Below, piece after piece: positions 1-22,110 of a stretch of 32,000 bases of DNA. Both the position numbers and the translations under genes were made by a program. The stretch comes from Candidatus Woesearchaeota archaeon. Lineage in GTDB: Archaea > Nanobdellota > Nanobdellia > Woesearchaeales > CALCXY01. The stretch covers positions 1 through 32,000 of the forward strand of contig CALCXY010000052.1 in assembly GCA_937906345.1 (NCBI GenBank), given 5' to 3'. The notes under the pieces are model-generated. The model had not been told where the DNA came from. It was given only the letters and a program-made list of their open reading frames with translations, and did not search any database. Positions within the stretch are counted from its first letter, which is position 1; the number at the start of each line of letters is the position of its first letter.

Positions 1-62
1 ACATCTTCTGGTACTGTTTCTTGTTCTACATATGCTTGTAGAATGTCTTCAAGTTTTTCCAT
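1..62 (-). CDS. hypothetical protein, first 20 codons only (gene runs off the left edge); paralog of the 357-aa protein
   Basis: Reverse complement of 1-62 reads MEKLEDILQAYVEQETVPED. This matches MEMAELEDILQAYVEKETVPED at the N-terminus of ORF 49..1122. The ATG (60-62) overlaps that ORF's stop by 14 nt. It is absent from the ORF track because it has no stop in the window. Confidence 0.55.
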   Translation of the reverse strand, partial: MEKLEDILQAYVEQETVPED

Positions 63-65
63 TTT
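3..65. repeat. direct repeat of the gene-junction sequence, copy 1 (pairs with 1057-1119)
   Basis: 55 of 63 nt are identical. The repeat covers the overlapping stop/start junction plus the first ~20 codons of each paralog. Confidence 0.9.
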
Positions 66-1122
66 GACCCTTCTTACTGTGATATGACCAGTGATCAGCA
101 ATTCGGGGATCTAACTTGGCAACTTCTGCCACCAGAGAATTTAAATTTTCACCACCCTTACGTTGTCTCCTGTCTACCATGGTCACAAGACGTCTTGGCT
201 TCCTGTTATATTTTACATTTAGAGGCACATCTGTTTTCATGTAATTTGCATTGAAATTTCTGTCAGGGTTATGTGAAAGATAATGTCTAAAATAAATCAT
301 TAAGGCCGAGACAGTTTCTGATTTATCAAATTTAGGTCTGATCTGCCACTCCTTTAAGATATTTGGATCAATTACACCACAAAGCTCTAAAATGTAGTAA
401 AATCCTCCTTTTTCAGCTAGATTCTTGTTTGCATTCTGAAAAAGATTTGCTGCCTTAGTGCCAAATTTTTTTTGTACTTCTGGATTTGAAAGGAAACTCA
501 GATTAAGCCTTTGAATATCTTGTTGATCCTTATAGATTTGATAAACATCCAAGAGAATCTGCACGGCCTCAGACTGATTAAACTTTGCTATTGGGTTCCA
601 ATGTTTAAACACATCTACATTCTTGCACGTAGATAAATTCACTATGTATTCCATACCTTCAGCAAATGTTCTTCGGGCTCCTTTATAGATATCTGCACCT
701 CCTATTTCCTTTCTTCTCAAGTATGATGATCCGAATCTCTCCTGGCTACACATATCCAGATAACCTTTTAGTATTATTAAAAATTTATTCGCCCAATGAA
801 CAGCATTAATTACTTTTCGAGCTTGTCGATTTCGTAATTGGGCAAATCTAAGTGTAGTTCCATCCCCTTGTAGATACCTTGGCTTTTTTTTTAATAACAT
901 CGGTAACTGCTCTAGGTCAACCAGAGGTATATCTAGATAAGTTGCTAGTAAAGAGTAATTTTTAAAAGCTTTAATCTCTTGCAAGATCTGAGGTCTCTCT
1001 TCTCTCTCTCTATTGAAATTATTAAGTAAATTTACTGCCTTTGGATACTCTAAAATATCTTCTGGTACTGTTTCCTTTTCCACGTATGCTTGTAGAATGT
1101 CCTCAAGTTCTGCCATTTCCAT
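49..1122 (-). CDS. hypothetical protein (357 aa) with an internal repeat; no family recognised
   Basis: Long ORF whose start overlaps the stop of the upstream SNF2-MTase gene by 20 nt. Internal repeat: HWNPIAKFNQSEAVQILLDVYQIY (aa 174-197) versus EWQIRPKFDKSETVSALMIYFRHY (aa 258-281). Confidence 0.7.
   Translation of the reverse strand: MEMAELEDILQAYVEKETVPEDILEYPKAVNLLNNFNREREERPQILQEIKAFKNYSLLATYLDIPLVDLEQLPMLLKKKPRYLQGDGTTLRFAQLRNRQARKVINAVHWANKFLIILKGYLDMCSQERFGSSYLRRKEIGGADIYKGARRTFAEGMEYIVNLSTCKNVDVFKHWNPIAKFNQSEAVQILLDVYQIYKDQQDIQRLNLSFLSNPEVQKKFGTKAANLFQNANKNLAEKGGFYYILELCGVIDPNILKEWQIRPKFDKSETVSALMIYFRHYLSHNPDRNFNANYMKTDVPLNVKYNRKPRRLVTMVDRRQRKGGENLNSLVAEVAKLDPRIADHWSYHSKKGQNGKT
1057..1119. 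repeat. direct repeat of the gene-junction sequence, copy 2
   Basis: See copy 1. Confidence 0.9.
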
Positions 1123-4100
1123 TCTCTCCTACTAGTTTTACAATATTAGAGGGTAATTGCTCGTACGGCAGAGACACATACCTTCCATTCTTGTGATCCA
1201 CTAAGCCGATTGTAGGAGAATCTTTCATCACATAGAATGAAAAATCCCCCTCTCTTCGAACGTAAAGTGCACTGGCTTCTAAACTGTCAAGAACTTCCTG
1301 AGGCATTTTCTCTTCAGAATCTTCATCCCTCATTTTTGGCTTTTCAAATAGCACTAATTTTCTGTCTTGACCTACTGCATCCTTACTTTTCTTATACTGC
1401 CAGAGATGATAACATCCTTTTTCCTCCCGACACAAAAATTCAAGCCCAAAATCAGATGCAAGAGCCTCATTCACTTTCTCCAGATGTTCGTCAGGATACA
1501 AATTTCTGTGTGTTCCAACATAGAATTTTCCATCAGGAACTATCACTCTATTGACTTCATTCATCAGCATCCAAAGATCATCATCAGAAGTATAGTGCAG
1601 ACTGAGTATTGAGCTTACTGAATCAAAATATTTATCATCAAAGGGAAGATTATAAAAATCACCGAGAAAATTCCTGCTCAGCGGAGAGTGCTTCTCAGCG
1701 AGCCTTAATTGAAATGGATTCATATCTACATTATAAATTTCTCTTCCTAATGCTCTCGAGAGAATTCCATTGCCTCCTCCTAAATCAAGCAATCTCTCAT
1801 ATCCATGCTGTTTGATATATTCTGCTACCCAAGGATTTATGCCTAAACTAACCTTGCTTCTATTTAGCTCAATAGCTAAGGTCTCTGCCCTTCTTATCTT
1901 CTCTTTAACTTCTTCACTTGGATTCTGATCCTTAAGCTCTTCTTCGCTGATTCCAATGGCTTTTGTTACATACTTCCTTCCTTTTCCAAATAAGTCTCTG
2001 AGAATTTCGTTTGCAGCTCTCTTTAAACGCTTCTTTATCCTTTCATTTTCTTGCGGCTTTTCCCAATTCTTGATCTCTCTTTGCTCTTGGGGTGTTAGCA
2101 ATCCTGAATTAAGGATTAAGTCATAATACACTTTTCTGTCATTGACGAGCTCCCATATTCCTTCATCAATAGTGTTCTCAGTCAGTAAAACATCAATATC
2201 AACATCATGTTTTTGTCCTTCTCTATGCAGCCTCTTCATCCACTGGTAAAATTCATCCCATGTGTACGGCAAGTCAAGGGCAATTCCATAACTTGCTCCA
2301 ACAAGGCTAATTCCTTCCTTCATAGTTGGAAGTGACACAAAGAGAACTTCTGTATTTCCTTGATTAAAGCGTTTCATAGCTGCTTGACGATCAGAAATCT
2401 GTTGTCCTTTTTTCTTCAGGGCTGGAACATCTCCATCTATCCTGTCTGTTACATACCACTGGCCAAAATAATCTGCAAGCTTATCAGTTACTCCGTTTTT
2501 AAAAAACGAGGTGCAGACCACTACTTTTCTATTTTTTGGAAGATCTCCAGCGTCTCTTTTTTGATTATATTCATCAACTGCTTTGAAATAATCCTCAATC
2601 ATGGACTCTAACATTACATATTTAGGAGCCTGAAAATCAATGTCAAATACTTCACTGTAACGTGTAAGTAATTCATCATCATGTCGAATATCTTCTCCTC
2701 TCACTCTACTGCCAAGAAGATTTGGATCTAGCGCTATTTTTCTTAATAAAATAAGTCTTTGCAATGGTTTGAGCCTATCTCCTCTATTAAGGATATATTC
2801 ATACATGCTCTTGATTGTATCATCTAATGGAACAAGGACCTCTCTCTCACATCTAGAAGGTAAGTCAAGCACGTCTTCACTCCTTCTTCTCAACATATAA
2901 GGTTTCAGATAAGCTCTTACATACCTTGCATCTCCTGCTAGAATCTCATTGAGGTCTTTACCTCTAGAATCAAATCCAGTAGCATAAAAATACAGGTCTA
3001 GATCTTTTCTGCCAAGTGGGAATGGAGTACCTGTGCTAATAACTTTTCTAGATACTTTGTTCATCAGCTCTCTTACAGCAAGGCCTCTATGTGTTGTCTG
3101 GCCTTTTGCGTTCTGGGATTCATCAACACAGAGCAGCTGATAATCTTGGTCAATTAATTTTTTTAACACAGAATCATGCTCATTGAGATGCAGAATCTTT
3201 GCATATAGTTCTACAATCTCTTCACGACCTAACTGAGAAAGTTCTTCTGCCTTAACCTGGTACGTATTTCCAGGTCGTTTCATTAGTGCCTTCACCTCTT
3301 TTCTCAACTCTGTGATTTTTTTGTCTGTTACGTTTTCTTTTACCAGTTCTATTTCATCAGGGCTAATATCGAATTCATCTAATTCATTCAATTTCCAATC
3401 TTTTCTAAAAATGAGCTCATAATTTACAATTGTAAATGCAGCTGTATCTAATTTTACATACTGTTCTTTACGAGTGGCTCCATTCAACACAACAATGTCC
3501 TCTTCAATCTTGTATTTTCCTTGAAAATAATTTTTCAGCTCTTCTGCAAAAGTTTCTTTTACAGTGTTAGGCGTGATTACTAATGTCTTGACAGCTCTTG
3601 CTTTATCTACAGATATACCTGCTGCAATGGCTTCAAGCTGTCCCATATACTCCGCTGATAATCCCATCTGAGCTGTCTTGCCTGTACCGCAATCATCAAA
3701 GAGGAATGTAATCTCATTTCCTTTCCGTTTCAGCTTAGCATAGAATTCAACTAGCTGATCTCTTCCAAAATCAGCAAGATACGCTTGAACTTCATCTCCT
3801 TCAATCCTTCCAGCTAGATCTTCAACTATTGCAACACGTAAACCATTATCTGGTATCTCCCTTAACTCTCTTGTTCTTTGCTCTAACTCTAACCAATTAA
3901 GCTGATGATCCTGAATATCTTCAAGGCTCCACTGCTCAGGTTTGTAGTCTCTACAAACAACAGCAATGCCTTCCTTTTGGTAAAAGCTTGGGAAAGCCCG
4001 AGTACCTATTCTAGCAGGAATTCCATGAATAGTCAGGTTATTAATATGATCATATTCTTCCCATAGTTCTTTATACATCTTTCTAGCTTCATCATGCTTA

Positions 4101-4858
4101 GAATTTTCTTCATTTTGCATTAGCTGCAAAAGAATATCATCCACCATAATCTTGCAAGTAGCTTCGTATTCAGGGTCTTCTGCATTCATACCTTTGAGCC
4201 CATCATATAATCTTTTTCGCATCCTATTTTTCTCTATATTGCGAATAGCATCATAACACATGCTTGGTAAGGATTTATTAGAAAGCTTGATCTCTTCAAT
4301 AATATGGTCTGCTGTGGGAATTTCAGGAATTTTAGGTTTCTTTCTTTCACTACGTATTCTGCCTAAATAATCTCGTAATCCTCTTACTTTTTCGAACAAT
4401 TCATCTCCCATATTTTTCAATTTATCTCGATGTATTACATACAATAATTCTGCTAGCTCATCCTCAACACCTTCATCCAATACGTCTTGGGCCCAATCCA
4501 GAAGCATATGCATAAGGGGGTCATCTTGATTAATACAATCCTCAATGCTTTTTTCCCCATTTATCTGAGCAGAAGTGTGATTATCTAAATCCAGAGCCAT
4601 TGTGGTATATGTAGGACGATAATTTGGAGCTTTTGGATTTGATTTATCAACTTCACCTATTTGATTTAGCAAAACCTCAGAAGGTAGTCTTCCTGTTTCA
4701 TTTGCTTGATCTTCGATATACTTCCTAAAATCAGAATGCTTATTCTCAAGGAAATCTGGTATCTTGAAGCTTTCTCCATCTACCATTTTTGTCATAAGGG
4801 AGATATTCATATCTGTGATAATTTTTGCAATGTCCTCTAGGGAAAACTCATTTACCAT
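1103..4858 (-). CDS. SNF2-family ATPase/helicase fused to a C-terminal class I SAM-dependent methyltransferase (1251 aa)
   Basis: SNF2 motifs: DDCGTGKT (Walker A, nt ~3677-3697), LLCVDESQNAK (motif II, ~3113-3130), STGTPF, LKPYMLRRR, VVVCTSF, MKEGISL, MKRLHREGQ (motif VI, ~2209-2245). MTase motifs: LLDLGGGNG (motif I, ~1768-1790), FDSVSSILSLHY, VIVPDGKFYV. The first ~380 aa and last ~120 aa are unassigned. Confidence 0.9.
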   Translation of the reverse strand: MVNEFSLEDIAKIITDMNISLMTKMVDGESFKIPDFLENKHSDFRKYIEDQANETGRLPSEVLLNQIGEVDKSNPKAPNYRPTYTTMALDLDNHTSAQINGEKSIEDCINQDDPLMHMLLDWAQDVLDEGVEDELAELLYVIHRDKLKNMGDELFEKVRGLRDYLGRIRSERKKPKIPEIPTADHIIEEIKLSNKSLPSMCYDAIRNIEKNRMRKRLYDGLKGMNAEDPEYEATCKIMVDDILLQLMQNEENSKHDEARKMYKELWEEYDHINNLTIHGIPARIGTRAFPSFYQKEGIAVVCRDYKPEQWSLEDIQDHQLNWLELEQRTRELREIPDNGLRVAIVEDLAGRIEGDEVQAYLADFGRDQLVEFYAKLKRKGNEITFLFDDCGTGKTAQMGLSAEYMGQLEAIAAGISVDKARAVKTLVITPNTVKETFAEELKNYFQGKYKIEEDIVVLNGATRKEQYVKLDTAAFTIVNYELIFRKDWKLNELDEFDISPDEIELVKENVTDKKITELRKEVKALMKRPGNTYQVKAEELSQLGREEIVELYAKILHLNEHDSVLKKLIDQDYQLLCVDESQNAKGQTTHRGLAVRELMNKVSRKVISTGTPFPLGRKDLDLYFYATGFDSRGKDLNEILAGDARYVRAYLKPYMLRRRSEDVLDLPSRCEREVLVPLDDTIKSMYEYILNRGDRLKPLQRLILLRKIALDPNLLGSRVRGEDIRHDDELLTRYSEVFDIDFQAPKYVMLESMIEDYFKAVDEYNQKRDAGDLPKNRKVVVCTSFFKNGVTDKLADYFGQWYVTDRIDGDVPALKKKGQQISDRQAAMKRFNQGNTEVLFVSLPTMKEGISLVGASYGIALDLPYTWDEFYQWMKRLHREGQKHDVDIDVLLTENTIDEGIWELVNDRKVYYDLILNSGLLTPQEQREIKNWEKPQENERIKKRLKRAANEILRDLFGKGRKYVTKAIGISEEELKDQNPSEEVKEKIRRAETLAIELNRSKVSLGINPWVAEYIKQHGYERLLDLGGGNGILSRALGREIYNVDMNPFQLRLAEKHSPLSRNFLGDFYNLPFDDKYFDSVSSILSLHYTSDDDLWMLMNEVNRVIVPDGKFYVGTHRNLYPDEHLEKVNEALASDFGLEFLCREEKGCYHLWQYKKSKDAVGQDRKLVLFEKPKMRDEDSEEKMPQEVLDSLEASALYVRREGDFSFYVMKDSPTIGLVDHKNGRYVSLPYEQLPSNIVKLVGENGNGRT

Positions 4859-4880
4859 ACAGAAGCCGATAAACTCATCA

Positions 4881-4888
4881 TATATAAA
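4881..4888 (-). promoter_or_regulatory. TATA box (TTTATATA on minus strand) about 22 nt upstream of the SNF2-MTase ATG; leaderless-type promoter
   Basis: Plus-strand tatataaa at 4881-4888. The same TTTATATA-22 nt-ATG geometry occurs at 31621-31628 in front of the Hel308-type gene. Confidence 0.5.
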
Positions 4889-4944
4889 TGTTTCTATTTT
4901 TTACTACTAGATAGTGAATACTTTATAAGGATATGTATTTGAAA

Positions 4945-5661
4945 TTAGATCGGAAATTCGCTCCTAAGCTGAAAAGAAAAAATTAAAGCATATCTGTCTT
5001 CAGGGATGGTATTTGAAACCCAGTGACTGTTTGATGCGTCAATTATAGCAATTTCATCATTGGCAAGATTGATTCTAGATTCCTTACCATTAACTTTGAG
5101 ACACAATGGTTCACCTTCAGGCTTGGCAGTTATAATATAATTTGCATCTTTATGAGGAGGAACTTTGTACTCATGTTCAGGTGTATGACGATATCGTGCA
5201 GAAACCAAGTCTGTGTACCCCACGTGATCATCCAAGAAAATTGTACAGAATCTCCTTGCAATCCAATCCATTTTTCGCATGCACTGCATTAATCCCTGCT
5301 CAAATCCAGGAAAATCTTTCTCAGTTTGCCATGTTCTTTGGCCTTCCTGGGTTTTTTCTTCCTGATATATTTGACTAAATCTAGTGGATGTCATGTTAAA
5401 GTACTCAGCTAATGCATCCTCAGGATTATCTCCTATATAATTATACCCTCCCATAATTTGGGGATTTTCTGCTAGATATAATCTTTTCCTATCAGAATCA
5501 AAAAATCGCCGAGATTGTTCATATACAGTATCAATTAGCTTTAAAGAATATCCCTTTAAAATAAGATATCCATCACGATTAAGATTTTCAGTAAAGGGGC
5601 AGCCAGGTTTGAGTTTGTAGAATTGACTTAAGGCCAAAGAATCAACATTTTGCTTGTTCAT
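4945..5661 (-). CDS. 2-oxoglutarate/Fe(II)-dependent oxygenase (238 aa)
   Basis: PPHKDANY (HxD), SNSHWVSN (distal His) and RYALIFSF (RxS, 2OG-binding Arg) occur in the expected order and spacing. N-terminal DGYLILKGY...RRFF resembles the DIOX_N region of IPNS/flavonol-synthase-like enzymes. Confidence 0.8.
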   Translation of the reverse strand: MNKQNVDSLALSQFYKLKPGCPFTENLNRDGYLILKGYSLKLIDTVYEQSRRFFDSDRKRLYLAENPQIMGGYNYIGDNPEDALAEYFNMTSTRFSQIYQEEKTQEGQRTWQTEKDFPGFEQGLMQCMRKMDWIARRFCTIFLDDHVGYTDLVSARYRHTPEHEYKVPPHKDANYIITAKPEGEPLCLKVNGKESRINLANDEIAIIDASNSHWVSNTIPEDRYALIFSFQLRSEFPI

Positions 5662-5693: not shown

Positions 5694-6656
5694 CTAAGAA
5701 GTACCGAACACTGTGAATTTATCCCCTTTATGCTTTTGTATTTTTTCCTTGGATGTATAGGGGCCTATAATACTAAGTTTTCCTCCTGATCTTACTCCAT
5801 TATCAGGAAGGGTTACTATATCAAAATTAGATTGGTAAGGATCTTCTTTCCTTCCAGGCATATAAGTTAATTTGGTTACTGCATTTTTTGGATTTGAAGG
5901 ATCAAGGGTTGTAAGGCCTTCTCTTGGAACTGAATCTCCAATAATGCTCACTTCACCCCCAAGAGCCAATCCATCTAGTGCATCAGAATTATCCTTAATG
6001 ATGTTAAGAGCTTTACTGACCTTTCCAGGACCATCTAAATACTCATTTCCAACATTAGCCTCGGTGATCATTACACATGAAGGAACATTAGCAGCTTCTG
6101 TGCCAATATTTAACAATCGTGCGCCATACATAAATTTCATGACAAAAAGTGATCCTGGAGCATATTTCATGCCCTTTCGAGCTTTAGTTTCTTTTCCATC
6201 TGGAAATCCTTCAAAAGATTCTGCTCCTATAATTCTTCCTGACATAAAGCTATTTCCACCATTTTCATAGGTCCGTATAATCCATCTTCCAATAAGATCC
6301 TGAGCTACTTTACAAGCATTTTTAGCATATCTGTTGTCAGCATTTTGGTTAATTCCATATACGAATAAACCATTAGGAGCATCAATCTGCATATACTCTG
6401 CAATATCTTTGTCTTTTTTTATTCCATCTATTACAGTATCTACTGATGTAAGACCTACGAATGGCTGATTATCAGGTTTTTTAGAGCTAATCTGTAAATC
6501 TCCTCTCAACTGGGCAAGATCAGGGTTCTCAGAATCCAAGACTTGATTGTCTGTTGCTACAGATACAATACGCACAGGATTAATACCTTTTCCATCTTCT
6601 CCAATTCGAATCAACCATTTTCCAACAGTTTCATTAGTTAGATAATCTATATTCAT
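5694..6656 (-). CDS. AAG/MPG-fold (3-methyladenine DNA glycosylase family) -like protein with extra N- and C-terminal regions (320 aa)
   Basis: aa ~109-240 match, from memory, the conserved blocks of the Pur_DNA_glyco family. VAQDLIGRWII corresponds to VA..LLGk.Lv. GRIIGAESFEG corresponds to GRIVETEAY.G, with the catalytic-position Glu kept at E146 (nt 6219-6221). MKYAPGSLFVMKFMYGARLLNI corresponds to MF..PG.lYVY.iYG....NI. LDGPGKVSKALNI corresponds to l.GPgKL.qAl.I. Confidence 0.6.
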   Translation of the reverse strand: MNIDYLTNETVGKWLIRIGEDGKGINPVRIVSVATDNQVLDSENPDLAQLRGDLQISSKKPDNQPFVGLTSVDTVIDGIKKDKDIAEYMQIDAPNGLFVYGINQNADNRYAKNACKVAQDLIGRWIIRTYENGGNSFMSGRIIGAESFEGFPDGKETKARKGMKYAPGSLFVMKFMYGARLLNIGTEAANVPSCVMITEANVGNEYLDGPGKVSKALNIIKDNSDALDGLALGGEVSIIGDSVPREGLTTLDPSNPKNAVTKLTYMPGRKEDPYQSNFDIVTLPDNGVRSGGKLSIIGPYTSKEKIQKHKGDKFTVFGTS

Positions 6657-6818: not shown

Positions 6819-7364
6819 ATGAATAAAACAATATCTCAACCTCTCGCTGATGGAACTAACAGCAAACCAGAACCCTATTATACTGCGGAATTGTATGAGA
6901 TAAGAGGAATAATGCCTTTCTTGGAGCATATAGAGCAATATTTGAGTGGTGATAGAACTGTTCCAGTTATTAGGACTGAAGATCATACCTCAAGGACCAA
7001 TCAGAATAGTGATGTATTCTGCACATTTTCTGATGATCTAATGAGACTATTTCTAGATGAAAAAAATGGATTAGAAAAACCCTATGAGGTAGCCTTAAAA
7101 TATGGGTTTAGGGGTTTTAGCAGAGGAGGTCGAAATGGAATTTTCTATCAAAGAAAGAAAGATGATGGTATGAAAGGGGTTACAGATTCTCTAATGTTAA
7201 AAAATACTGAAATGTTAAGTTTAGACTTAGATGTTCCTATTGATCACTTGGATGAACTTAAGAAAGTCAAAATTGTCTGGCATAATCCACAAGGACCAAG
7301 AGTGGTAGGAGCATATAATACTATTAAGCAGAGAATAGTATTTCTAGATTTTGCAAATTACTAA
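6819..7364 (+). CDS. hypothetical protein (181 aa)
   Basis: ORF in the high-GC island, divergent from the glycosylase-like gene. Its stop (7362-7364) overlaps the stop of the convergent gene 7361..8284. No motif recognised. Confidence 0.55.
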   Translation: MNKTISQPLADGTNSKPEPYYTAELYEIRGIMPFLEHIEQYLSGDRTVPVIRTEDHTSRTNQNSDVFCTFSDDLMRLFLDEKNGLEKPYEVALKYGFRGFSRGGRNGIFYQRKKDDGMKGVTDSLMLKNTEMLSLDLDVPIDHLDELKKVKIVWHNPQGPRVVGAYNTIKQRIVFLDFANY

Positions 7365-8284
7365 GCAGCTTCTATATTTTCTATATAAACTCCTCTAGGA
7401 AACTTGAATTCCTGCAAGCTATTAGACTGAGGAATAGGTCCAGCTTTTGGAACTAATGCTGTAGAGAAGAATATAATCCTAATCCCTCCCACAACTCCGA
7501 TCTGCCCAAAGAAATTCCTCCGCTCATCATCTGACATACTGCTTACTCTAGCCATAACAGCTGGAGGACAGTTAAAAACTCCAATTAAATCGCCTTTTTG
7601 TCTTCCGGCTGAACCAACTAAGGCTCCACCAGAAAGAGTCTTTTTTACCTCTGCTTTACTCATAGCTCTACCATAAATTCTAGGTGATGGGTAATAACTA
7701 TCCTTTTCAAATTGATCAAGTTTCATATTTATTTGTCTCAATATATCTATAAAGATTATAATTTGATTTGTTGTCTTTTCTAGTCCATCAAAACATCGCT
7801 TCACCCTTCCAGATAAGGCATGCTTATGGATTTTTAATCCATCTTTTAAAAGTTCTGATAGCAAGATAGTATTTCCTCTTGCTCTTTCTGACAAATTAAA
7901 GGCATTGTTCATATATTGAGTAAAGATGATTCTCAGCGGCAATTTCTCATCCAGATACACCTCATAATCCTGTTGAATTATTTTTAATAATTTACGTGCT
8001 TTCTTAATTTTGTACCGAATATCCTGCTCAATAGCTTTAACCTTTCTGAACTCTTCACCTAATTTTTCTAGATTCTCAATATGTACTTGACTTACTTTCA
8101 GTGTGTATCTGTGTATAACAAACCCGTGTTTTGCAAGCACATGATCCTCTAAGAATTCCTCTTGCTTCACCATAGTTCTTAACAGGTCTTCAAGAGTCTT
8201 GAACCTAGTATACAAATCTAAAATAAGGGCATATGCTTCTCTCATACGGATATTATACAATAAACTATTTAAAAACATTTGCAT
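7361..8284 (-). CDS. hypothetical protein (307 aa): helical/coiled-coil N-terminal ~190 aa plus Gly-rich C-terminal ~110-aa domain
   Basis: Long ORF with island-like composition. The N-terminal half is rich in heptad-like K/E/L stretches. The C-terminal domain is unassigned. Confidence 0.6.
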
Positions 8285-8529: not shown

Positions 8530-9120
8530 ATGATAAGAAAAATTACCAAGTTTAATATCATATCCTTGTATACATCTAATTATGATAAGAGGCTATACTT
8601 AAGAGAGATAGCTAAATTCCTGAAAAAGCCTCACCAATCTATTAAGCCATATATCCAACAGCTAGTCAATGAAAATATTCTAATACAGGAAAAAAGAAAT
8701 AACGTAACTGACTTTTACCTTAATGTAAAAAATCATGCGGTATTCGAATATCTTAGCATGGCTGAAAAAACACAATTAATCCAAAAAATAAATCAAGAAA
8801 TAATTCTCAAAATACTCTATGAGAAACTTGCCAAAACATTCACTCTAAATACTTATATAATCTTTGGCTCAGCAGCACAATACGTAAAGAAGACATCGGA
8901 TATCGACTTGCTCATAATAGGAAAGAAAAAAATAAATGACATTCTCAATCAGTTTGAAAAAGTCTACAACAAGTCGATCCATACAATTCAAGTATTAAAT
9001 CTAGAAAACGTTTCAACAAGGCTAATCAAAGAGGTGTATAAGAAGCATATTATAATGAATAATTCAGATCAGGTAATAACATTTTTGAGGAAAATTCATG
9101 AAAAAAATAGAATGGTGTAA
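8530..9120 (+). CDS. minimal nucleotidyltransferase (MNT-type antitoxin-like) with N-terminal wHTH
   Basis: IIFGSAAQYVKKTSDIDLLIIG matches the GS-x9-DxD NTase motif. The N-terminal LREIAKFLKKPHQSIKPYIQQLVNENIL looks like a wHTH. It overlaps the downstream HEPN-like ORF by 23 nt. Confidence 0.8.
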   Translation: MIRKITKFNIISLYTSNYDKRLYLREIAKFLKKPHQSIKPYIQQLVNENILIQEKRNNVTDFYLNVKNHAVFEYLSMAEKTQLIQKINQEIILKILYEKLAKTFTLNTYIIFGSAAQYVKKTSDIDLLIIGKKKINDILNQFEKVYNKSIHTIQVLNLENVSTRLIKEVYKKHIIMNNSDQVITFLRKIHEKNRMV

Positions 9121-9586
9121 AACAAAATCTAGGGGTATCAAGAAAATTGATCCTAATGATAATCTCTCAGAGGAATACTTAGAAAATGCAGAGGAAAGCC
9201 TAGAAGTTTTAAGAAGTATTCATAAAACTAAGTCCAAGATGTGGCTTGCAACAACTAAATACTATATCAAGTACTTTGCAGTCTACTCAATCTTTATGAA
9301 AATTGGAATTAAGTGCGAAATACATGATTGTACTATTGCACTCATTGAAAATCTTGAAAACGGAAATATTTTTGAAGTTGGCACTGCAAAGACGTTGGAG
9401 AAAGATAAACAATTAAGGATTGATAATCAGTATTATCTCAAAAACAAGGAAGTTAATATTAACTTTGATGAGCTTGCAGGTTTTATGCTTTTCATTCGAG
9501 AAGCACTGGAAAATTTGGATGAAGATAGAATTGAGGAAATTAGAGAAACTATTTTTCCTTCTAAAAAAGATACAGAAAAACAGTAG
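9098..9586 (+). CDS. HEPN-domain-like protein (partner of the nucleotidyltransferase)
   Basis: All-helical 162 aa. EEYLENAEESLEVLRSI...YYIKYFAVYSIFMKIGIKCEIHDCT resembles HEPN helices, and the genomic pairing with an MNT supports the call. A canonical Rx4-6H motif is not evident (LRIDNQYY instead). Confidence 0.6.
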   Translation: MKKIEWCKTKSRGIKKIDPNDNLSEEYLENAEESLEVLRSIHKTKSKMWLATTKYYIKYFAVYSIFMKIGIKCEIHDCTIALIENLENGNIFEVGTAKTLEKDKQLRIDNQYYLKNKEVNINFDELAGFMLFIREALENLDEDRIEEIRETIFPSKKDTEKQ

Positions 9587-10630: not shown

Positions 10631-11680
10631 ATGAAACCTCGGTATGAAGTATTGAGAGATATGAAAAAGAGAAAGAAGCGTTTCATTAATATACTGCCAA
10701 GTATAAGATCAATATTTACAGGAAAATCCTTATTTATTGTAATGTTTATTCTTTTATTTATTGTTTCTATTTTTTTCTATACTCAATTTGAATTTTTATC
10801 ACAAGGACCATACCAATCTCAAGCAGGTGAATCTGCTTACTTTCAAGCGTTTTATTGGCTTGTAACTACTGCAACAACTGTGGGTTATGGTGATATCACT
10901 CCTACAACAATGGAAGGAAAAATATTAGCCTTAGTTGTTATGGTTTTAGGTGTTTCCTTATTAGGTTTTTTAATCACTCAATTAACAAAATCAATTGTAG
11001 AATCAAATATTGGAAAATTATTTGGATTAAACCGAATAAGATCCTCTATTGAATATATTATTTGTGGATGGAACGATTTAAGTAAAGCTGCCTTTGAAGA
11101 AGTAAACAATTTTAAAAATTCAATAATTATTATTTCAAAAACCCGTCCTGAGATTGATTTTTCAAAAAATGTTCAATTTATGAATGGAGATCCTCAAGAT
11201 AAAACCATTTTAGAAAATGCTAATATCAAAAAGGCAAAAAATGTGCTATTATGTATGGACTCTGATTCTGAGATCTTATTAGCAATTCATATTATTAGAG
11301 AATTAAATCCTTGGATTAACATAACTGCAAAGATGAATGATCCAGAATATATTCCCATGGCTGAATCTGCTGGTGCTGACCAAGTTGTTGCACCTTCAGC
11401 AATATCTGGAAGACTTTTATCAATAGTCCCTGAGCAGCCTTATGTTGTAAAGTGGTTTCTAGGTGCTACCTCTACTACCTTAAATGAAAAATTTATTGAA
11501 TACATTGTAGGTCCAAAATCTGTTTTTGCTGGAAAAACATTAGATCTCATCAGACAATCTTCAAATATAAAAATTATTGGAGTAGAATCAACTGAAGGAT
11601 TTGAAAAACTTCCTAAAGATGATTATGAAATTAAAATAGGAGATAAATTAATTGTATTATTTGATACCTTGCCAAAATGA
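10631..11680 (+). CDS. MthK-like K+ channel: 2-TM pore with C-terminal RCK (TrkA-N/TrkA-C) domain
   Basis: Selectivity filter TTTVGYGD lies between two hydrophobic helices. The RCK region contains YIICGWNDLSKAAFEEV and ...GADQVVAPSAISGRLL. Confidence 0.9.
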   Translation: MKPRYEVLRDMKKRKKRFINILPSIRSIFTGKSLFIVMFILLFIVSIFFYTQFEFLSQGPYQSQAGESAYFQAFYWLVTTATTVGYGDITPTTMEGKILALVVMVLGVSLLGFLITQLTKSIVESNIGKLFGLNRIRSSIEYIICGWNDLSKAAFEEVNNFKNSIIIISKTRPEIDFSKNVQFMNGDPQDKTILENANIKKAKNVLLCMDSDSEILLAIHIIRELNPWINITAKMNDPEYIPMAESAGADQVVAPSAISGRLLSIVPEQPYVVKWFLGATSTTLNEKFIEYIVGPKSVFAGKTLDLIRQSSNIKIIGVESTEGFEKLPKDDYEIKIGDKLIVLFDTLPK

Positions 11681-13659
11681 TAAACAACAATACAATCATA
11701 CTATTATCGTTTGCAGCTGCTTTTCTAAAGATAGCTCTAGCAGGGTATGTATATCATAAAAATCACAAAGCAAAAATTAATCTTATTTTTGCCTTAATTT
11801 TTTTCTCCCAAGGAATTTGGGATCTTGGAAAAGCGTTAATGTGGCTAGCATCTACAAAAAATACTGCTTTATTATTTGGTAAAATATCGTATGCTGCATA
11901 TATTTTATCTGTTTTCTTATTTGCACATTTTTGTTGGGTATATTTAAAGAGGAAAAACTTTTTTTCCAAATCCAAACTAGGGTTATTGGTATGGTATACT
12001 CCAATGATATTCCTAATCATATCTTTATTTACAACACCACTAGTTATATCTGACCTTTCTTTCCCAGGAGAAATTGATTTAGGATTTAACTTAGAACTTT
12101 GGATGTATCAATACGGTCCTTTCTATAATAATTTCTTCCTAGTATTCCAAATGCTTCCTTTCTTATATGGATTTATTATTTTTATTGCAAAATATATTAG
12201 ATCTACTGATGCAGATTTTAGAAAGCGTTTATTATATTTAATTGTTGGATCAGGAATTCCTATTTTAATCGGAATCCCTACTGGAGTTGTTTTACCAGCA
12301 ATTGGGATAAGATTACCTCCTCATAATAATATTCTAACCTTAATCATGGCTATTCTTATAGGTATTGGAATAATAAAATATAAACTTCTTTCAATTAAAC
12401 CTACTTTAGAAACCGTTAATAAGAAAATTAAATTTTCAGAAGATATCAAAAAATCCAATCTCAATTATGGCTCTTCGTATTTAATAGAAAATCCTGAATC
12501 ACATGAAACTGCTTTCCAATTTTTCCTCTTTAATTTATTTAAAGGGAATTATGGATTTATATTAACATCTCAAAACCCAGAACATCTAAAAGAAAAATAC
12601 AAATTAGTAAATACTCCAATTTCTTGGATAACAGACCATGAAACAGATGAGAGTTCCTTTGGTCCAAATGATCTGGAACAAATTTATTCTACTGTTGAAA
12701 ATTTTGTTTTAACAGTAAAGAATTCTTTTATTTTAGTTGATTGTCTTGATATTTTAAAGGATCATAATAATTTTCATAAAATCCAGTATTTTTTAAGAAG
12801 ATTAAATGGGTTAGCTAAAGAAACAGGAGCCTGTATAATTGTTCCTAGAGGAGATTTAAAATTATCTAAGAAAGAAAAAATTGTGTTTAAGTCTGAGTTT
12901 ACCTACATAACAGGTAAAGGAAAAATGGCTTCACTAACAGGATCTATAATTGATTTATATGAAAAAAGTCCTGGAAAAGAAAAATATATAATTTTAGGCT
13001 ATACAAATGTTTCAAAATCTTTGATTAATGAATATTTGCATAGAAAAATTCCTTGTACTGTTGTTTCCACTAAACACATTATGAGAAAATATCATTCTTC
13101 AATTACTTTTATTAATAAAAACCCTTTAATTAAAAGTAATATCATGCAGTTAAAAATTGATAATCCTAATACCAATGTGATTATTACATTTGATTCAGAT
13201 GCAGATACAATTTTAGGGATTAATATGGTGAGGCATATAACAGAGAAAGCAAAAGTATTAGTGAAAGTAAATACAGATAAATTTATCGACATTGCAAAAA
13301 AAGCAGGAGCAAATGAAGTCATAGCATCCTCTGCCTTAGGAGGAAAATTATTATCATTATCATTAACATATCCAAATATTGTTGAATGGTTCATGGATAC
13401 CATCACTTCAAGAAACAAATCATTGGATTTAACTGAGATATTAATTAATGAAAAATCTCCTCTTAAAGGTAAAACTATTATTGAAATAGATAAAATTTTT
13501 GGAGACGTAGCTAACGTTTTAAGTGTAAGTAAAAAAAGCACCTTTGATCTTACAACAAATGATCATTATAAAGTAAGAGAAACTGATAAACTTATAGTGC
13601 TCGTACATAGAGATAGATTAAAACAAAATCCTAAATTAAATTCTCTGTTTAATTCATGA
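11677..13659 (+). CDS. membrane sensor-like protein: N-terminal multi-TM (7TM) domain + DUF835-like domain + C-terminal RCK (TrkA) domain
   Basis: The first ~240 aa hold about 7 hydrophobic helices. GSSYLIENPES...GFILTSQNPEHLKEKY...ISWIT...FILVDCLDIL matches the DUF835 pattern as I recall it. The C-terminus GANEVIASSALGGKLLSLSLTYPNIVEWF is paralogous to the channel RCK. A 4-nt ATGA overlap links it to the channel gene. Confidence 0.75.
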   Translation: MINNNTIILLSFAAAFLKIALAGYVYHKNHKAKINLIFALIFFSQGIWDLGKALMWLASTKNTALLFGKISYAAYILSVFLFAHFCWVYLKRKNFFSKSKLGLLVWYTPMIFLIISLFTTPLVISDLSFPGEIDLGFNLELWMYQYGPFYNNFFLVFQMLPFLYGFIIFIAKYIRSTDADFRKRLLYLIVGSGIPILIGIPTGVVLPAIGIRLPPHNNILTLIMAILIGIGIIKYKLLSIKPTLETVNKKIKFSEDIKKSNLNYGSSYLIENPESHETAFQFFLFNLFKGNYGFILTSQNPEHLKEKYKLVNTPISWITDHETDESSFGPNDLEQIYSTVENFVLTVKNSFILVDCLDILKDHNNFHKIQYFLRRLNGLAKETGACIIVPRGDLKLSKKEKIVFKSEFTYITGKGKMASLTGSIIDLYEKSPGKEKYIILGYTNVSKSLINEYLHRKIPCTVVSTKHIMRKYHSSITFINKNPLIKSNIMQLKIDNPNTNVIITFDSDADTILGINMVRHITEKAKVLVKVNTDKFIDIAKKAGANEVIASSALGGKLLSLSLTYPNIVEWFMDTITSRNKSLDLTEILINEKSPLKGKTIIEIDKIFGDVANVLSVSKKSTFDLTTNDHYKVRETDKLIVLVHRDRLKQNPKLNSLFNS

Positions 13660-21251: not shown

Positions 21252-21348
21252 TAGCCCCGAGCGGATTCGAACCGCTGTCCATGCCTCCAAAGGGCACGAT
21301 GATTGACCACTACACTCCGCAGACCTTAATTAGATCTTCTACGGGGCT
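21252..21348 (-). tRNA. tRNA-Gln: tRNA-Gln(UUG) with a 24-nt intron between positions 8 and 9 (intron 21317-21340)
   Basis: On the minus strand, the acceptor AGCCCCG/CGGGGCU has A73 and the A1-U72 pair typical of archaeal tRNA-Gln. The D arm is GUGU-AGUGGUCAA-UCAU. The anticodon arm is GUGCC-CUUUGGA-GGCAU (anticodon 21288-21290). The T arm is AGCGG-UUCGAAU-CCGCU. No CCA is encoded, and an oligo-T tract follows the 3' end. Confidence 0.8.
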
Positions 21349-21378
21349 ATTACTCGAATCCGCCTAATAGGCTAAAAA

Positions 21379-22110
21379 TTAGAATAGATCGTTTGTATAT
21401 AAATTTAATGCTTCTATCCTAGATTTTAAAGATGATTTTGGAATATAATATCCAAATTTATCCCAAAAAAGATATTTAGAAAAATGTACAGGGTTTTTTG
21501 GAGATATTAATTCCATCCATTTTTCAAGATTTTCAGTACCTGATAATTGATATATGAGAAGAACAAATTTTCTACCTTGACTCCATTTTCCATAATTAAA
21601 ACCTAATTTTTCAAATAAATATTTTAATTGATTTGAAAATGTTGAAGGAGTGAAACCTAATTCTAATCTTGGATAATAATTATATGATTTAGATTGTTTA
21701 GAAAATTTTAAACATCCATCTGTATCAAATAAACCTCTAAGGAAAGGAGGGTATAACTTTTTATTTTTCAAGATAAATAAAGGAATTTTCGCATTTTTTT
21801 TGTTCCCTCTTATTAAACCAATTTCATTTATTAAGAAATCAATAATGGGTTTAGAATAAAAATAAATGTAATAAGCATTCCGATCTTTTCTTTTTTTTAA
21901 TTTAGGTATAATATTAAACAGTTCAACAATCAAAGGAATAACATGATACTTATAATAATAAATATCTTCCAAACTTCCTACGATTGTAACTCTATTATAT
22001 TCTAAATGTATATTTCCATCTCCTAAAACAATTCCAATAAATTCAACCAACTTTGCACTTTTAGGAGGAATTCTGATTTTTTTTAAATTTCCTTTATTAT
22101 ATTTTTTCAT
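21379..22110 (-). CDS. free-standing double-motif LAGLIDADG homing-endonuclease-like protein
   Basis: LVEFIGIVLGDGNI is motif 1 and FLRGLFDTDGCLKF is motif 2. The gene ends 30 nt upstream of the tRNA-Gln on the same strand. Confidence 0.85.
   Translation of the reverse strand: MKKYNKGNLKKIRIPPKSAKLVEFIGIVLGDGNIHLEYNRVTIVGSLEDIYYYKYHVIPLIVELFNIIPKLKKRKDRNAYYIYFYSKPIIDFLINEIGLIRGNKKNAKIPLFILKNKKLYPPFLRGLFDTDGCLKFSKQSKSYNYYPRLELGFTPSTFSNQLKYLFEKLGFNYGKWSQGRKFVLLIYQLSGTENLEKWMELISPKNPVHFSKYLFWDKFGYYIPKSSLKSRIEALNLYTNDLF

What the first reader, a model, noticed from the sequence alone, without database searches (positions are those of the whole stretch)
1103..4858. 1251-aa SNF2 ATPase fused to a non-DNA-type class I methyltransferase, with about 500 aa of unassigned sequence
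All SNF2 motifs (I, II, III, IV, V, VI) are intact, so the ATPase is probably active. The C-terminal MTase has a GxGxG motif I (LLDLGGGNG) and a Methyltransf_11-like layout. I could not find a DPPY/NPPY or PCQ catalytic motif typical of N6A/N4C or C5 DNA methyltransferases. Its substrate, whether DNA, RNA, protein or small molecule, is therefore open.

The N-terminal ~380 aa and the C-terminal ~120 aa after the MTase match nothing I recognise. They could carry target recognition or effector functions.
Basis: partly seen in the sequence, partly recalled or inferred. Interest (0 to 1): 0.6.

Follow-up and report, generated by a model that had tools for sequence, protein, structure and literature searches.

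The report
Archaeal SNF2 motor fused to methyltransferase
A tiny symbiotic (DPANN) archaeon encodes a real 1251-residue DNA-motor protein fused to a methyltransferase that is not of the DNA-methylase type, and it is the core of a rare gene set found in no paper or defence catalogue searched, together with a DNA-repair-glycosylase look-alike and several repeat proteins.

Summary
Window 1103..4858 (-) is one intact 1251-aa ORF. It has all SNF2 motifs, a canonical Methyltransf_11 class I methyltransferase, and no DPPY/NPPY or PCQ motif.

It is not an assembly chimera. The identical protein is recorded on 7 contigs in four source collections, and eight homologues are collinear.

The fusion is a family: 15 of 15 sampled relatives share the architecture. 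In DPANN (Nanoarchaeia) genomes it travels in a conserved cassette with two partners:
- a small AAG/MPG-fold protein, present in 25 of 43 non-redundant loci;
- tandem paralogous repeat proteins.

In this genome the cassette has six genes: AAG-like (catalytic Glu kept), an orphan 2OG-oxygenase-like gene, the fusion, and three adaptors. The last two adaptors lie on contig C13.

The N-terminal 280 aa form an all-alpha domain with no fold match. Residues 306-380 are an insertion unique to this protein. The C-terminal tail is a small alpha/beta unit. The methyltransferase is structurally closest to rRNA and small-molecule enzymes (RRP8, Bud23), and its substrate is unproven.

My best reading is an adaptor-guided DNA-marking, defence-like machine (about 45%).

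I found no description in papers or in PADLOC. This scan has already met the module on at least 7 other genomes.

The parts
1103..4858 (-). P0001, the 1251-aa SNF2 ATPase-Methyltransf_11 fusion (whole gene including the stop codon)
   Evidence: ORF list and translation. Pfam domains. Full-length collinear homologue P0005 at 50-54% identity.
4019..4858 (-). N-terminal all-alpha domain, aa 1-280, specific to the subfamily, fold unassigned
   Evidence: Conserved in 8 homologues (A3; nt HMM). AlphaFold model has pLDDT of about 80 over residues 1-277. No Foldseek PDB match, best E = 1.2. No profile link to the adaptor repeats.
3965..3994 (-). SNF2 Q motif (FPSFYQKEGI, aa 289-298), the true start of the ATPase
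   Evidence: P290, Y293 and Q294 are invariant in A3. Q294 is conserved in at least 90% of 51 family members.
3719..3943 (-). 75-aa insertion (aa 306-380) between the Q motif and motif I, unique to this protein
   Evidence: It is a gap in all seven closest homologues. Low pLDDT. No other copy in the genome.
2099..3718 (-). SNF2 ATPase core: lobe 1 (motifs I-III, with a helical insert of about 90 aa before motif II) and lobe 2 (motifs IV-VI), aa 381-920
   Evidence: Pfam SNF2-rel_dom and Helicase_C. phrog_62 at E = 2e-41. K394, D579, E580, Q872 and R876 are invariant in 51 sequences. Motifs read directly.
1844..2098 (-). Helical linker, aa 921-1005, conserved within the family
   Evidence: A3 and A4 alignments, G960 invariant in A3. 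Helices in the model.
1379..1843 (-). Class I SAM methyltransferase domain (Methyltransf_11 type), aa 1006-1160
   Evidence: Pfam 55.2 bits. Model pLDDT 85-96. Foldseek and PDB profile hits are to class I MTases only. D1025 conserved in at least 90% and K1157 invariant in 51 sequences.
1106..1333 (-). C-terminal tail, aa 1176-1251: predicted helix plus four-stranded sheet. The last 7 codons (6 residues and the stop; 20 nt, 1103-1122) overlap the start of P0002.
   Evidence: Model pLDDT 71-84 for residues 1187-1231. Conserved in P0005 and partly in P0027/L006. Overlap of 1103-1122 with the next gene.
5694..6656 (-). P0004, AAG/MPG-fold (Pur_DNA_glyco) protein of 320 aa, first gene of the cassette; it keeps the catalytic Glu (E146)
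   Evidence: Pfam 36.5 bits, cut-off 27. TIGR00567. Alignment to human AAG places E146 at E125 and keeps the Y162 wedge. This is the commonest neighbour family of the fusion.
4945..5661 (-). P0003, orphan 2OG-Fe(II)-oxygenase-like protein of 238 aa, inserted between the AAG-like gene and the fusion; specific to this genome
   Evidence: Only weak Pfam hints: Asp_Arg_Hydrox and DIOX_N, both below cut-off. No homologue in 5.8 billion clusters except itself. No PDB hit. Absent from all other loci.
49..1122 (-). P0002, first adaptor paralogue (357 aa): conserved acidic N-terminal segment plus repeats of about 85 aa
   Evidence: Homologous to the 620-aa and 465-aa proteins that follow P0005 in L002. 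Repeat period 84-88 aa. No Pfam or PHROG match.
1..65 (-). Start of the second adaptor paralogue, cut by the contig end. It continues on contig C13, which carries this paralogue and a third one.
   Evidence: The junction is 81% identical to the P0001/P0002 junction. The C52 end overlaps the C13 start by 55 identical nt. Paralogues at C13:3-1115 and 1054-2196.

Best explanation
What it is. P0001 is the ATP-driven hub of a conserved, sporadically distributed DPANN-archaeal module.

Shown:
- It is an intact SNF2-type ATPase covalently joined through a helical linker to a SAM-binding class I methyltransferase of the Methyltransf_11 type.
- The same fusion occurs in many DPANN genomes.
- It is encoded next to an AAG/MPG-fold protein and next to one to several tandem paralogous repeat proteins.

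Inferred mechanism:
1. The repeat proteins are interchangeable nucleic-acid-binding adaptors. They dock on the fusion through a short acidic amphipathic end motif. Here the motif is N-terminal (ILQAYVE); in the HNH_repeat group it is C-terminal (SLLEQYV).
2. The SNF2 motor translocates on or distorts double-stranded DNA at the site chosen by the adaptor and exposes a base.
3. The methyltransferase places a methyl group at a position not used by ordinary restriction-modification enzymes. Its nearest folds make m1A and m7G in rRNA.
4. The AAG-fold partner flips out and reads that base. In this genome's version, which keeps the catalytic Glu, it may excise the base.

The patchy distribution, the variable adaptor arrays, the atypical G+C content and the neighbouring MNT/HEPN pair suit a conflict or defence-like role better than housekeeping.
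For: Protein and family:
- Integrity of the SNF2 and methyltransferase motifs.
- Residues invariant or conserved in at least 90% of 51 family members: K394, D579, E580, Q872, R876, D1025, K1157.
- 15 of 15 sampled relatives have SNF2-rel_dom + Helicase_C + Methyltransf_11.

Gene context:
- The AAG-like family is the top recurrent neighbour: 17 metagenome loci, adjacent in 14-15 of 18 genome loci, and 25 of 43 non-redundant fusion loci overall, although many contigs are truncated.
- Adjacent repeat arrays carry PF18780 HNH_repeat units of 64-66 aa, or units of 84-97 aa in this subfamily.
- In some relatives the repeats are fused to the N-terminus of the SNF2 protein (L013, L015, L019, L021, L022).
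- The terminal motif occurs in 21 of 108 operon-adjacent ORFs against 0 of 399 other ORFs.
- P0004 aligns to human AAG with E125 and Y162 retained.

Distribution:
- About 15-20 of 400 genomes of the phylum carry the fusion.
- It was not found in the same-genus genome or in 39 others of the order.
- G+C is 36-38% in the cassette against about 30% in the rest of the window.
- A Polbeta-type nucleotidyltransferase gene (Pfam Polbeta; the first-stage notes read it, with the next ORF, as an MNT/HEPN pair) lies at 8530-9120.
Against: - No biochemical evidence exists for any step.
- The methyltransferase family (Methyltransf_11) has no member known to me that methylates DNA. All sequence and fold neighbours act on RNA, lipids, small molecules or proteins.
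- The catalytic Glu of the AAG-like partner is missing in 24 of 30 family members, so excision cannot be the general mechanism.
- The 85-aa repeats of this genome's adaptors are not demonstrably homologous to the HNH_repeat type (hhalign E about 0.1). Their binding of nucleic acid is only assumed.
- The docking motif was defined post hoc on related sequences.
- No nuclease or other obvious effector is encoded in the cassette.
- No PADLOC model matches the partner proteins.
Confidence: 0.45

Rival explanations
1. RNA- or RNP-directed machine. The SNF2-like ATPase remodels an RNA-protein complex or RNA polymerase (as RapA does), and the fused methyltransferase modifies rRNA, tRNA or nascent RNA. 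The repeat proteins would then be RNA-binding adaptors.
For: The best structural neighbours by TM-score are rRNA methyltransferases: nucleomethylin/RRP8 (TMt 0.72) and Bud23 (0.65). Some relatives exceed the Pfam cut-off for Methyltransf_8, the Rrp8 family. In the closest homologue's contig the cassette lies directly downstream of the rRNA operon.
Against: The rRNA adjacency is not recurrent: there is no rRNA gene within about 10 kb in 17 other loci. The partner is a DNA-glycosylase fold, and the adaptor repeats of the larger group are homing-endonuclease-associated (DNA-binding) repeats. A housekeeping RNA modification would not be present in only about 5% of genomes and be missing from a complete genome of the same genus. 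P0001 itself has no Methyltransf_8 hit.
Confidence: 0.17
2. Chromatin or protein methylation. The motor acts on archaeal chromatin, and the methyltransferase modifies a protein such as a histone, Alba, an adaptor or the AAG-like partner, by analogy with eukaryotic remodeller-methyltransferase assemblies.
For: Class I Methyltransf_11-like folds include protein methyltransferases; weak PDB profile hits include a protein lysine methyltransferase and CheR. SNF2 proteins are classic chromatin motors (PDB hits to ISWI, Chd1, SRCAP and Fun30 C-lobes).
Against: There is no specific similarity to any protein methyltransferase family. This reading does not explain the conserved AAG-fold partner. The patchy, island-like distribution is unusual for a chromatin regulator.
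Confidence: 0.13
3. Ordinary plasmid- or phage-type SNF2-DNA-methylase fusion (DarB-like dyad, or a restriction-modification or DISARM component) whose DNA-methylase motif is merely diverged.
For: The SNF2 part matches phrog_62, the large phage 'DNA helicase' family, best (E = 2e-41). There are weak PADLOC hits to DpdE, ZorD, DrmD and mad2. Coupling of a helicase with a methylase is a well-known theme (PMC5512222).
Against: No N6/N4 or C5 motif and no Pfam DNA-methylase family at E <= 0.1. The domain order is reversed relative to DarB. None of the 80 best IMG/VR loci has the fusion, the AAG-like gene or the repeats. The PADLOC scores (25-40 bits) cover only generic lobe-2 or Rossmann segments. 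No partner genes of DISARM, Dpd or Zorya are present.
Confidence: 0.05
4. Assembly chimera or fused pseudogene: two unrelated genes joined by misassembly.
Against: The identical 1251-aa protein is on record from NCBI, ENA, Tara and MetaClust on 7 contigs of up to 52.6 kb. P0005 is collinear over the full length on two separately assembled JGI contigs. Dozens of relatives have the same architecture. The contig break lies in the repeated adaptor genes, not in P0001, and is explained by a 55-nt overlap with C13.
Confidence: 0.01

Closest known systems
DNA methylase-helicase dyad of polyvalent proteins (archetype DarB of phage P1; Iyer et al. 2017, PMC5512222)
   Same: A SWI2/SNF2-clade ATPase is covalently coupled to a SAM methyltransferase. 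The SNF2 part of P0001 matches the phage family phrog_62 best. The proposed logic is the same: a translocase presents DNA to the methylase.
   Different: In DarB the methylase is an N6-adenine DNA methyltransferase placed N-terminal to the helicase, preceded by LPD36, and carried by phages and plasmids. Here the methyltransferase is a Methyltransf_11 type without DPPY, it is C-terminal, the gene is chromosomal in DPANN archaea, it was not found on viral contigs, and it comes with an AAG-fold protein and adaptor arrays.
SNF2-containing defence systems: class 1 DISARM (DrmD + DrmMI), Dpd (DpdE), Zorya (ZorD)
   Same: An SNF2 ATPase works with a DNA-modifying activity in a patchily distributed multi-gene cassette. 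There are weak PADLOC hits to DrmD, DpdE and ZorD.
   Different: The hits are 25-40 bits over lobe 2 only. None of the signature partners (DrmA/B/C, DpdA-K, ZorA/B/C) is present. The methyltransferase is not a DNA-methylase family. The AAG-fold partner and the repeat adaptors have no counterpart in those systems.
Type I / ISP restriction-modification enzymes with exchangeable specificity subunits
   Same: The concept is shared: motor plus methyltransferase plus a separate, swappable target-recognition component, here present as several paralogues.
   Different: There is no HsdS/TRD fold, no nuclease domain and no gamma-class N6 methylase. The adaptors are helical tandem-repeat proteins.
Human AAG / bacterial Mpg (Pur_DNA_glyco, PF02245), for the partner protein P0004
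   Same: Same fold family. P0004 keeps the equivalents of the catalytic E125 and the intercalating Y162.
   Different: P0004 is 320 aa with extra N- and C-terminal regions. Y127 is replaced by F and Y159 by M, and the H136 loop is deleted. Most family members in these cassettes lack the catalytic Glu. The gene is operonic with a motor-methyltransferase rather than being a stand-alone repair gene.
rRNA methyltransferases RRP8/nucleomethylin (m1A) and Bud23 (m7G), for the methyltransferase domain
   Same: They are the nearest solved folds by TM-score (2zfu TMt 0.72, 6g4w/4qtu 0.62-0.65). The Methyltransf_11/8-type motif layout is shared.
   Different: Identity is only 17-20%. P0001 has no Trm112 partner or ribosome-biogenesis context, and it does not reach the Methyltransf_8 model.

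Membership tests
SWI2/SNF2 ATPases (SF2 helicase-like) | Pfam SNF2-rel_dom plus Helicase_C above their gathering scores | tested here: met
   38.6 bits (cut-off 24.9) and 33.6 bits (cut-off 23.5).
SWI2/SNF2 ATPases (SF2 helicase-like) | Motifs Q, I, Ia, II, III, IV, V and VI with catalytic Lys, Asp-Glu and Arg fingers | tested here: met
   GTGKT 391, DESQ 579, TGTP 609, QWMKRLHREGQ 872. K394, D579, E580, Q872 and R876 are invariant in 51 relatives.
Class I SAM-dependent methyltransferases, Methyltransf_11 type | Pfam PF08241 above its gathering score, GxGxG motif I, acidic residue after strand 2, seven-stranded Rossmann-like fold | tested here: met
   55.2 bits (cut-off 21.2). LLDLGGGNG and NVDMN read directly. 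The model has pLDDT 85-96 for the core and the strand order of class I MTases, with 1139 Foldseek hits at E <= 0.001; the listed ones are all class I MTases.
N6-adenine / N4-cytosine DNA methyltransferases | Catalytic motif IV (D/N/S)PP(Y/F/W) after strand 4 | tested here: not met
   The pattern occurs nowhere in the protein. The loop after strand 4 reads SLHYTS. No Pfam N6_Mtase, N6_N4_Mtase, MethyltransfD12 or Eco57I hit at E <= 0.1.
C5-cytosine DNA methyltransferases | PCQ (motif IV) and ENV (motif VI) within the methyltransferase domain | tested here: not met
   No PC[QN]. The only ENV is at residue 508, inside the SNF2 insert. No PF00145 hit.
DarB-like methylase-helicase dyad (polyvalent proteins) | Adenine methyltransferase N-terminal to the SNF2 ATPase, preceded by LPD36, borne by phage, plasmid or conjugative element | tested here: not met
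   The order is reversed and the methyltransferase family is different. No fusion among the 80 IMG/VR loci.
Class 1 DISARM | DrmD SNF2 together with DrmA, DrmB, DrmC and the DrmMI N6 methylase | tested here: not met
   DrmD hit of only 25 bits over residues 823-910. No PADLOC hit for P0002, P0003 or P0004.
RRP8 / Methyltransf_8 rRNA m1A methyltransferases | Pfam PF05148 above its gathering score | tested here: inconclusive
   P0001 has no hit at E <= 0.1. Relatives P0038 and P0054 reach 35 bits (cut-off 27) but score higher on Methyltransf_11. 2zfu is the best TM-score match.
DPANN SNF2-methyltransferase / adaptor / AAG-like module (undescribed; defined in this scan) | SNF2-Methyltransf_11 fusion adjacent to an AAG-fold gene and to tandem repeat-protein paralogues | tested here: met
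   The window carries P0004, P0001, P0002 and two further paralogues on C13. The same layout is seen in L002, L004-L006, L008-L010 and in most of L164-L181.

The most novel reading that the evidence does not exclude
A 'methylate-then-read/excise' nucleic-acid surveillance system. Arrays of swappable repeat-protein adaptors direct an SNF2 motor to chosen DNA. The fused rRNA-type methyltransferase installs a lesion-type methyl base (for example m1A, m3A or m7G) on that DNA. The AAG-fold partner recognises the base and, in versions such as this one that keep the catalytic Glu, excises it. The result would be abasic sites that inactivate foreign DNA, with the orphan 2OG-oxygenase here acting as an eraser. 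This would be a restriction principle based on enzymatic DNA alkylation and base excision, not seen in described defence systems.
Probability: 0.15. Interest if true: 0.88.

Novelty: new variant of a known kind. Interest (0 to 1): 0.62.

Why it matters
Coupling a helicase to a methylase is a recurring solution in restriction-modification, DISARM and phage anti-restriction, but so far always with dedicated DNA methylases. Here the same logic uses three different components: a methyltransferase from the RNA/small-molecule branch, a DNA-repair glycosylase fold as a fixed partner, and multi-copy modular adaptors.

If the module acts on DNA, it would do three things:
- reveal a new chemical mark, or a new way of restricting DNA, in DPANN archaea, whose biology is almost untested;
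- provide a natural example of adaptor-programmable recruitment of a DNA-modifying motor;
- show how an AAG fold is re-used as a reader.

This genome's version is the most useful one for experiments on excision, because its AAG-like protein keeps the catalytic Glu that most relatives have lost. It also carries an extra oxygenase-like gene.

Tried and rejected
I searched residues 52-1251 instead.
2. A Pfam scan of the 51-sequence alignment exceeded the size limit. I sampled 15 members instead.
3. N-terminal domain: Foldseek against the PDB gave nothing (best E = 1.2). hhalign against both adaptor repeat types and against the N-termini of the HNH_repeat-associated group linked only the last 60 positions around the Q motif. 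The idea that the N-terminus is a cryptic adaptor-repeat region is therefore not supported.
4. Homology between the 85-aa repeats (P0002 type) and the PF18780 repeats is not established (hhalign E about 0.1).
5. The rRNA-operon linkage seen in L002 was rejected as a general feature.
6. Viral origin: there is no fusion, AAG-like gene or repeat protein in the 80 best IMG/VR loci.
7. The PADLOC 'mad2' hit (E = 4e-9) was followed into the MADS papers. mad2 is a predicted N6 DNA methylase. The hit has the size of generic Rossmann-fold similarity, so I do not use it as evidence for DNA methylation.
8. P0003: no homologue and no PDB relative, so it cannot be assigned to AlkB or TET/JBP.
10. A phylogeny of the methyltransferase domain against reference DNA, RNA and small-molecule methyltransferases was not done. 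No reference sequences could be brought in without typing them. Profile and fold comparisons were used instead.
11. Literature searches found no description of the fusion or the module.


Full report
**1. Observation**

The minus strand of window 1103..4858 holds one ORF of 1251 codons. Three Pfam families are above their curated cut-offs: SNF2-rel_dom (368-690), Helicase_C (777-881) and Methyltransf_11 (1024-1114).

Read directly, all SNF2 motifs are present: Q FPSFYQKEG, I GTGKT, II DESQ, III TGTP, IV VVVCTSFF, V MKEGISL, VI QWMKRLHREGQ. The methyltransferase has the canonical Methyltransf_11 layout: LLDLGGGNG, NVDMN, GDFYNLPF, FDSVSSILSLHY, VPDGKFYV. There is no (D/N/S)PP(Y/F/W) and no PCQ anywhere in the protein.

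- The SNF2 Q motif lies at 289-298, so the ATPase begins near residue 285. Residues 306-380 are an insertion that all seven closest homologues lack.
- The methyltransferase fold extends to about residue 1160, which leaves a tail of about 75-90 residues.

**2. Not an artefact**

- The identical protein is on record from NCBI, ENA, Tara and MetaClust on 7 contigs of up to 52.6 kb.
- Its nearest relative P0005 (50-54% identity, 1169 aa) is collinear from Met1 to the tail on two independently assembled JGI contigs.
- The contig end 1.1 kb downstream is caused by the repeated adaptor genes. The reverse complement of C52:1-55 is identical to the first 55 nt of contig C13, which continues the array.

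**3. Host and setting**

The window carries CDP-archaeol synthase, a thermosome subunit, XPD and Hel308. The genome is 1.64 Mb and 77% complete. Its relatives are 0.6-2.1 Mb genomes spread over very many families of one order. One homologue is named 'Candidatus Nanoarchaeia archaeon', and neighbouring loci carry archaeal SRP RNA. The host is a DPANN archaeon.

The cassette has 36-38% G+C against about 30% for the rest of the window. A Polbeta-type nucleotidyltransferase gene, read in the first-stage notes as an MNT/HEPN pair with the next ORF, lies close by at 8530-9120.

**4. The fusion is a family**

An exhaustive HMMER search of 1.84 billion representatives gave 3427 hits, 140 of them below 1e-10. 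All 15 hits sampled for Pfam have SNF2-rel_dom + Helicase_C + Methyltransf_11. Their N-terminal extensions are 0, about 300 or 900-1100 aa long.

Eight proteins, including P0001, share the 300-aa N-terminal domain (A3). Across 51 members:
- K394, D579, E580, Q872, R876 and K1157 are invariant;
- D1025 (methyltransferase motif I) is conserved in at least 90%.

Both activities therefore appear to be under selection.

**5. The gene neighbourhood is the main new result**

I clustered all ORFs of 71 fetched loci. The only family that recurs widely next to the fusion is a small Pur_DNA_glyco (AAG/MPG-fold) protein, found in 17 loci. In 18 further loci cut from 17 genomes of the phylum it is adjacent in 14-15. 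Pooled, 25 of 43 non-redundant fusion loci carry it on the fetched stretch, although many stretches end at contig ends.

Between or beside these two genes lie one to seven tandem paralogous proteins made of repeats:
- In the larger group the units are 64-66 aa and match Pfam PF18780, the homing-endonuclease-associated repeat.
- In P0001's subfamily the units are 84-97 aa and match nothing.
- In some relatives the repeats are fused to the N-terminus of the SNF2 protein itself.

The cassette in this genome, in order:
1. P0004, AAG-like (6656-5694).
2. P0003, an orphan 2OG-oxygenase-like protein (5661-4945).
3. P0001.
4. P0002 (1122-49), whose start overlaps the end of P0001 by 20 nt.
5. Two more paralogues on C13 (3-1115 and 1054-2196).
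6. A convergent, unrelated gene follows.

P0003 occurs in no other locus and has no homologue in 5.8 billion clusters.

**6. The partner proteins**

*AAG-like protein.* P0004 aligns with human AAG over the catalytic block:
- E146 stands at the position of the general base E125.
- The intercalating Y162 is kept.
- Y127 is replaced by F and Y159 by M.
- The H136 loop is deleted.

In an alignment of 30 cassette-associated AAG-like proteins, only 6 keep this Glu: P0004, L002, L010, L175 and two in L181. The rest have Ala, Gly, Ser or Lys. For the family as a whole the conserved role is therefore more likely base flipping and reading than excision. The version in this window could be catalytic.

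*Adaptors.* The adaptor paralogues of the window and of L002 share a strongly conserved acidic N-terminal segment that contains ILQ-x-YVE. The HNH_repeat-type adaptors end in SLLE(Q/S)YV.

A loose pattern for this motif within 30 residues of either end occurs in 21 of 108 operon-adjacent ORFs and in 0 of 399 other ORFs of the same loci. The pattern was defined after seeing the data and the sequences are related. It is a lead for a docking peptide, not a proof.

**7. The unassigned parts of P0001**

- *N-terminus.* Residues 1-277 are modelled as an all-alpha domain (pLDDT about 80, 5-sequence alignment). There is no PDB fold match, best E = 1.2, and no profile similarity to either adaptor repeat type.
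- *Insertion 306-380.* Low confidence in the model, and found nowhere else in the genome.
- *C-terminal region.* The model (18 sequences, pLDDT 76) gives a helical linker, a confident methyltransferase core (pLDDT 85-96) and a tail (1187-1231) of one helix and four strands with pLDDT 71-84.
- *Tail conservation.* The tail is conserved in P0005 and partly in P0027/L006 only.

**8. What the methyltransferase resembles**

Sequence-profile and fold searches against the PDB return only class I enzymes that act on small molecules, lipids, peptides or rRNA. By TM-score the best are nucleomethylin/RRP8 (0.72) and Bud23 (0.62-0.65). No DNA methyltransferase is among the 50 Foldseek matches listed.

Some relatives exceed the cut-off of Methyltransf_8, the Rrp8 family; P0001 does not. 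The PADLOC hit to 'mad2', a predicted N6 DNA methylase of the MADS system, has the size of generic Rossmann-fold similarity.

The substrate cannot be read from the fold.

**9. Mechanism**

*Shown:*
- an intact motor-methyltransferase fusion;
- a conserved three-part gene module;
- patchy distribution: about 15-20 of 400 genomes of the phylum have long-frame hits, and nothing was found in the complete same-genus genome or in 39 others of the order;
- nothing found on IMG/VR contigs.

*Inferred:* adaptors bind nucleic acid and dock on the fusion. The SNF2 motor works on dsDNA, as SNF2 ATPases generally do (PMC5512222). The methyltransferase modifies an exposed base. The AAG-fold protein reads that base and, here, perhaps removes it.

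I give this DNA-directed, defence-like reading about 45%. The alternatives are an RNA/RNP-directed reading at about 17%, a protein/chromatin-methylation reading at about 13%, an ordinary diverged DNA-methylase fusion at about 5%, and an assembly artefact at about 1%.

The rRNA-operon adjacency seen in L002, which might have favoured RNA, is not found in 17 other loci.

**10. Comparison with known systems and novelty**

The closest described concept is the DarB-type methylase-helicase dyad and the SNF2-containing defence systems DISARM, Dpd and Zorya. P0001 fails their membership tests:
- wrong methyltransferase family;
- reversed domain order;
- no signature partners;
- only 25-40-bit PADLOC hits.

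Full-text searches found no description of the fusion, of its link to an AAG-like gene, or of PF18780 arrays next to SNF2 genes.

Earlier agents of this scan reported the same module on at least seven other genomes. My independent analyses agree with them. They add that this genome's version keeps the AAG catalytic Glu, carries an extra oxygenase-like gene, uses 85-aa-repeat adaptors with the putative docking motif at the N-terminus, and has a unique insertion in the ATPase.

I class it as a new variant of a known kind (motor-methylase coupling). The module as a whole could prove to be a new kind of system if the methylate-then-read/excise idea holds.

Noticed in passing
window 1-65 and contig C13 (L191) 1-2196: The left end of contig C52 and the start of contig C13 share 55 identical bases, so the two contigs join. 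The adaptor array continues with two more paralogues (C13:3-1115 and 1054-2196), followed by a convergent 583-aa gene. The assembly broke inside the repeated adaptor N-termini.
   Followed up: yes
window 4945-5661 (-): P0003 is a 238-aa protein with an HxD...H pattern and weak, sub-threshold hits to 2OG-oxygenase families. It has no homologue in the 5.8-billion-cluster search except itself, no PDB relative, and is absent from every other cassette examined. It is an orphan gene inserted into a conserved module.
   Followed up: partly
L002 2253-8810: In the contig of the closest homologue the cassette lies directly downstream of a 16S-tRNA-23S operon. The 23S match spans 3734 nt for a 2987-nt model. 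Two paralogous ORFs (4166-4627 in the spacer and 7127-7642 inside the 23S) suggest intron- or homing-endonuclease-type insertions.
   Followed up: no
window 21252-22110: A stand-alone LAGLIDADG_3 ORF (21379-22110, minus strand) lies 52 nt from a tRNA-Gln(TTG) gene (21252-21326, minus strand).
   Followed up: no
window 8530-9586: A Polbeta-type nucleotidyltransferase gene (8530-9120) overlaps a 162-aa ORF (9098-9586). This looks like an MNT/HEPN-style toxin-antitoxin pair at the edge of the higher-G+C island.
   Followed up: no
L181 (G031:C25) 2426-5485: One relative carries two nearly identical 144-aa AAG-like genes, both with the catalytic Glu, separated by a 733-aa ORF and downstream of the fusion and a 1110-aa ORF. 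This is a duplicated variant of the module.
   Followed up: no
window 10631-13659: A K+ channel with an RCK (TrkA_N/C) domain is followed, with a 4-nt overlap, by a 660-aa HisKA_7TM-DUF835 protein that carries its own TrkA_N/C domains.
   Followed up: no
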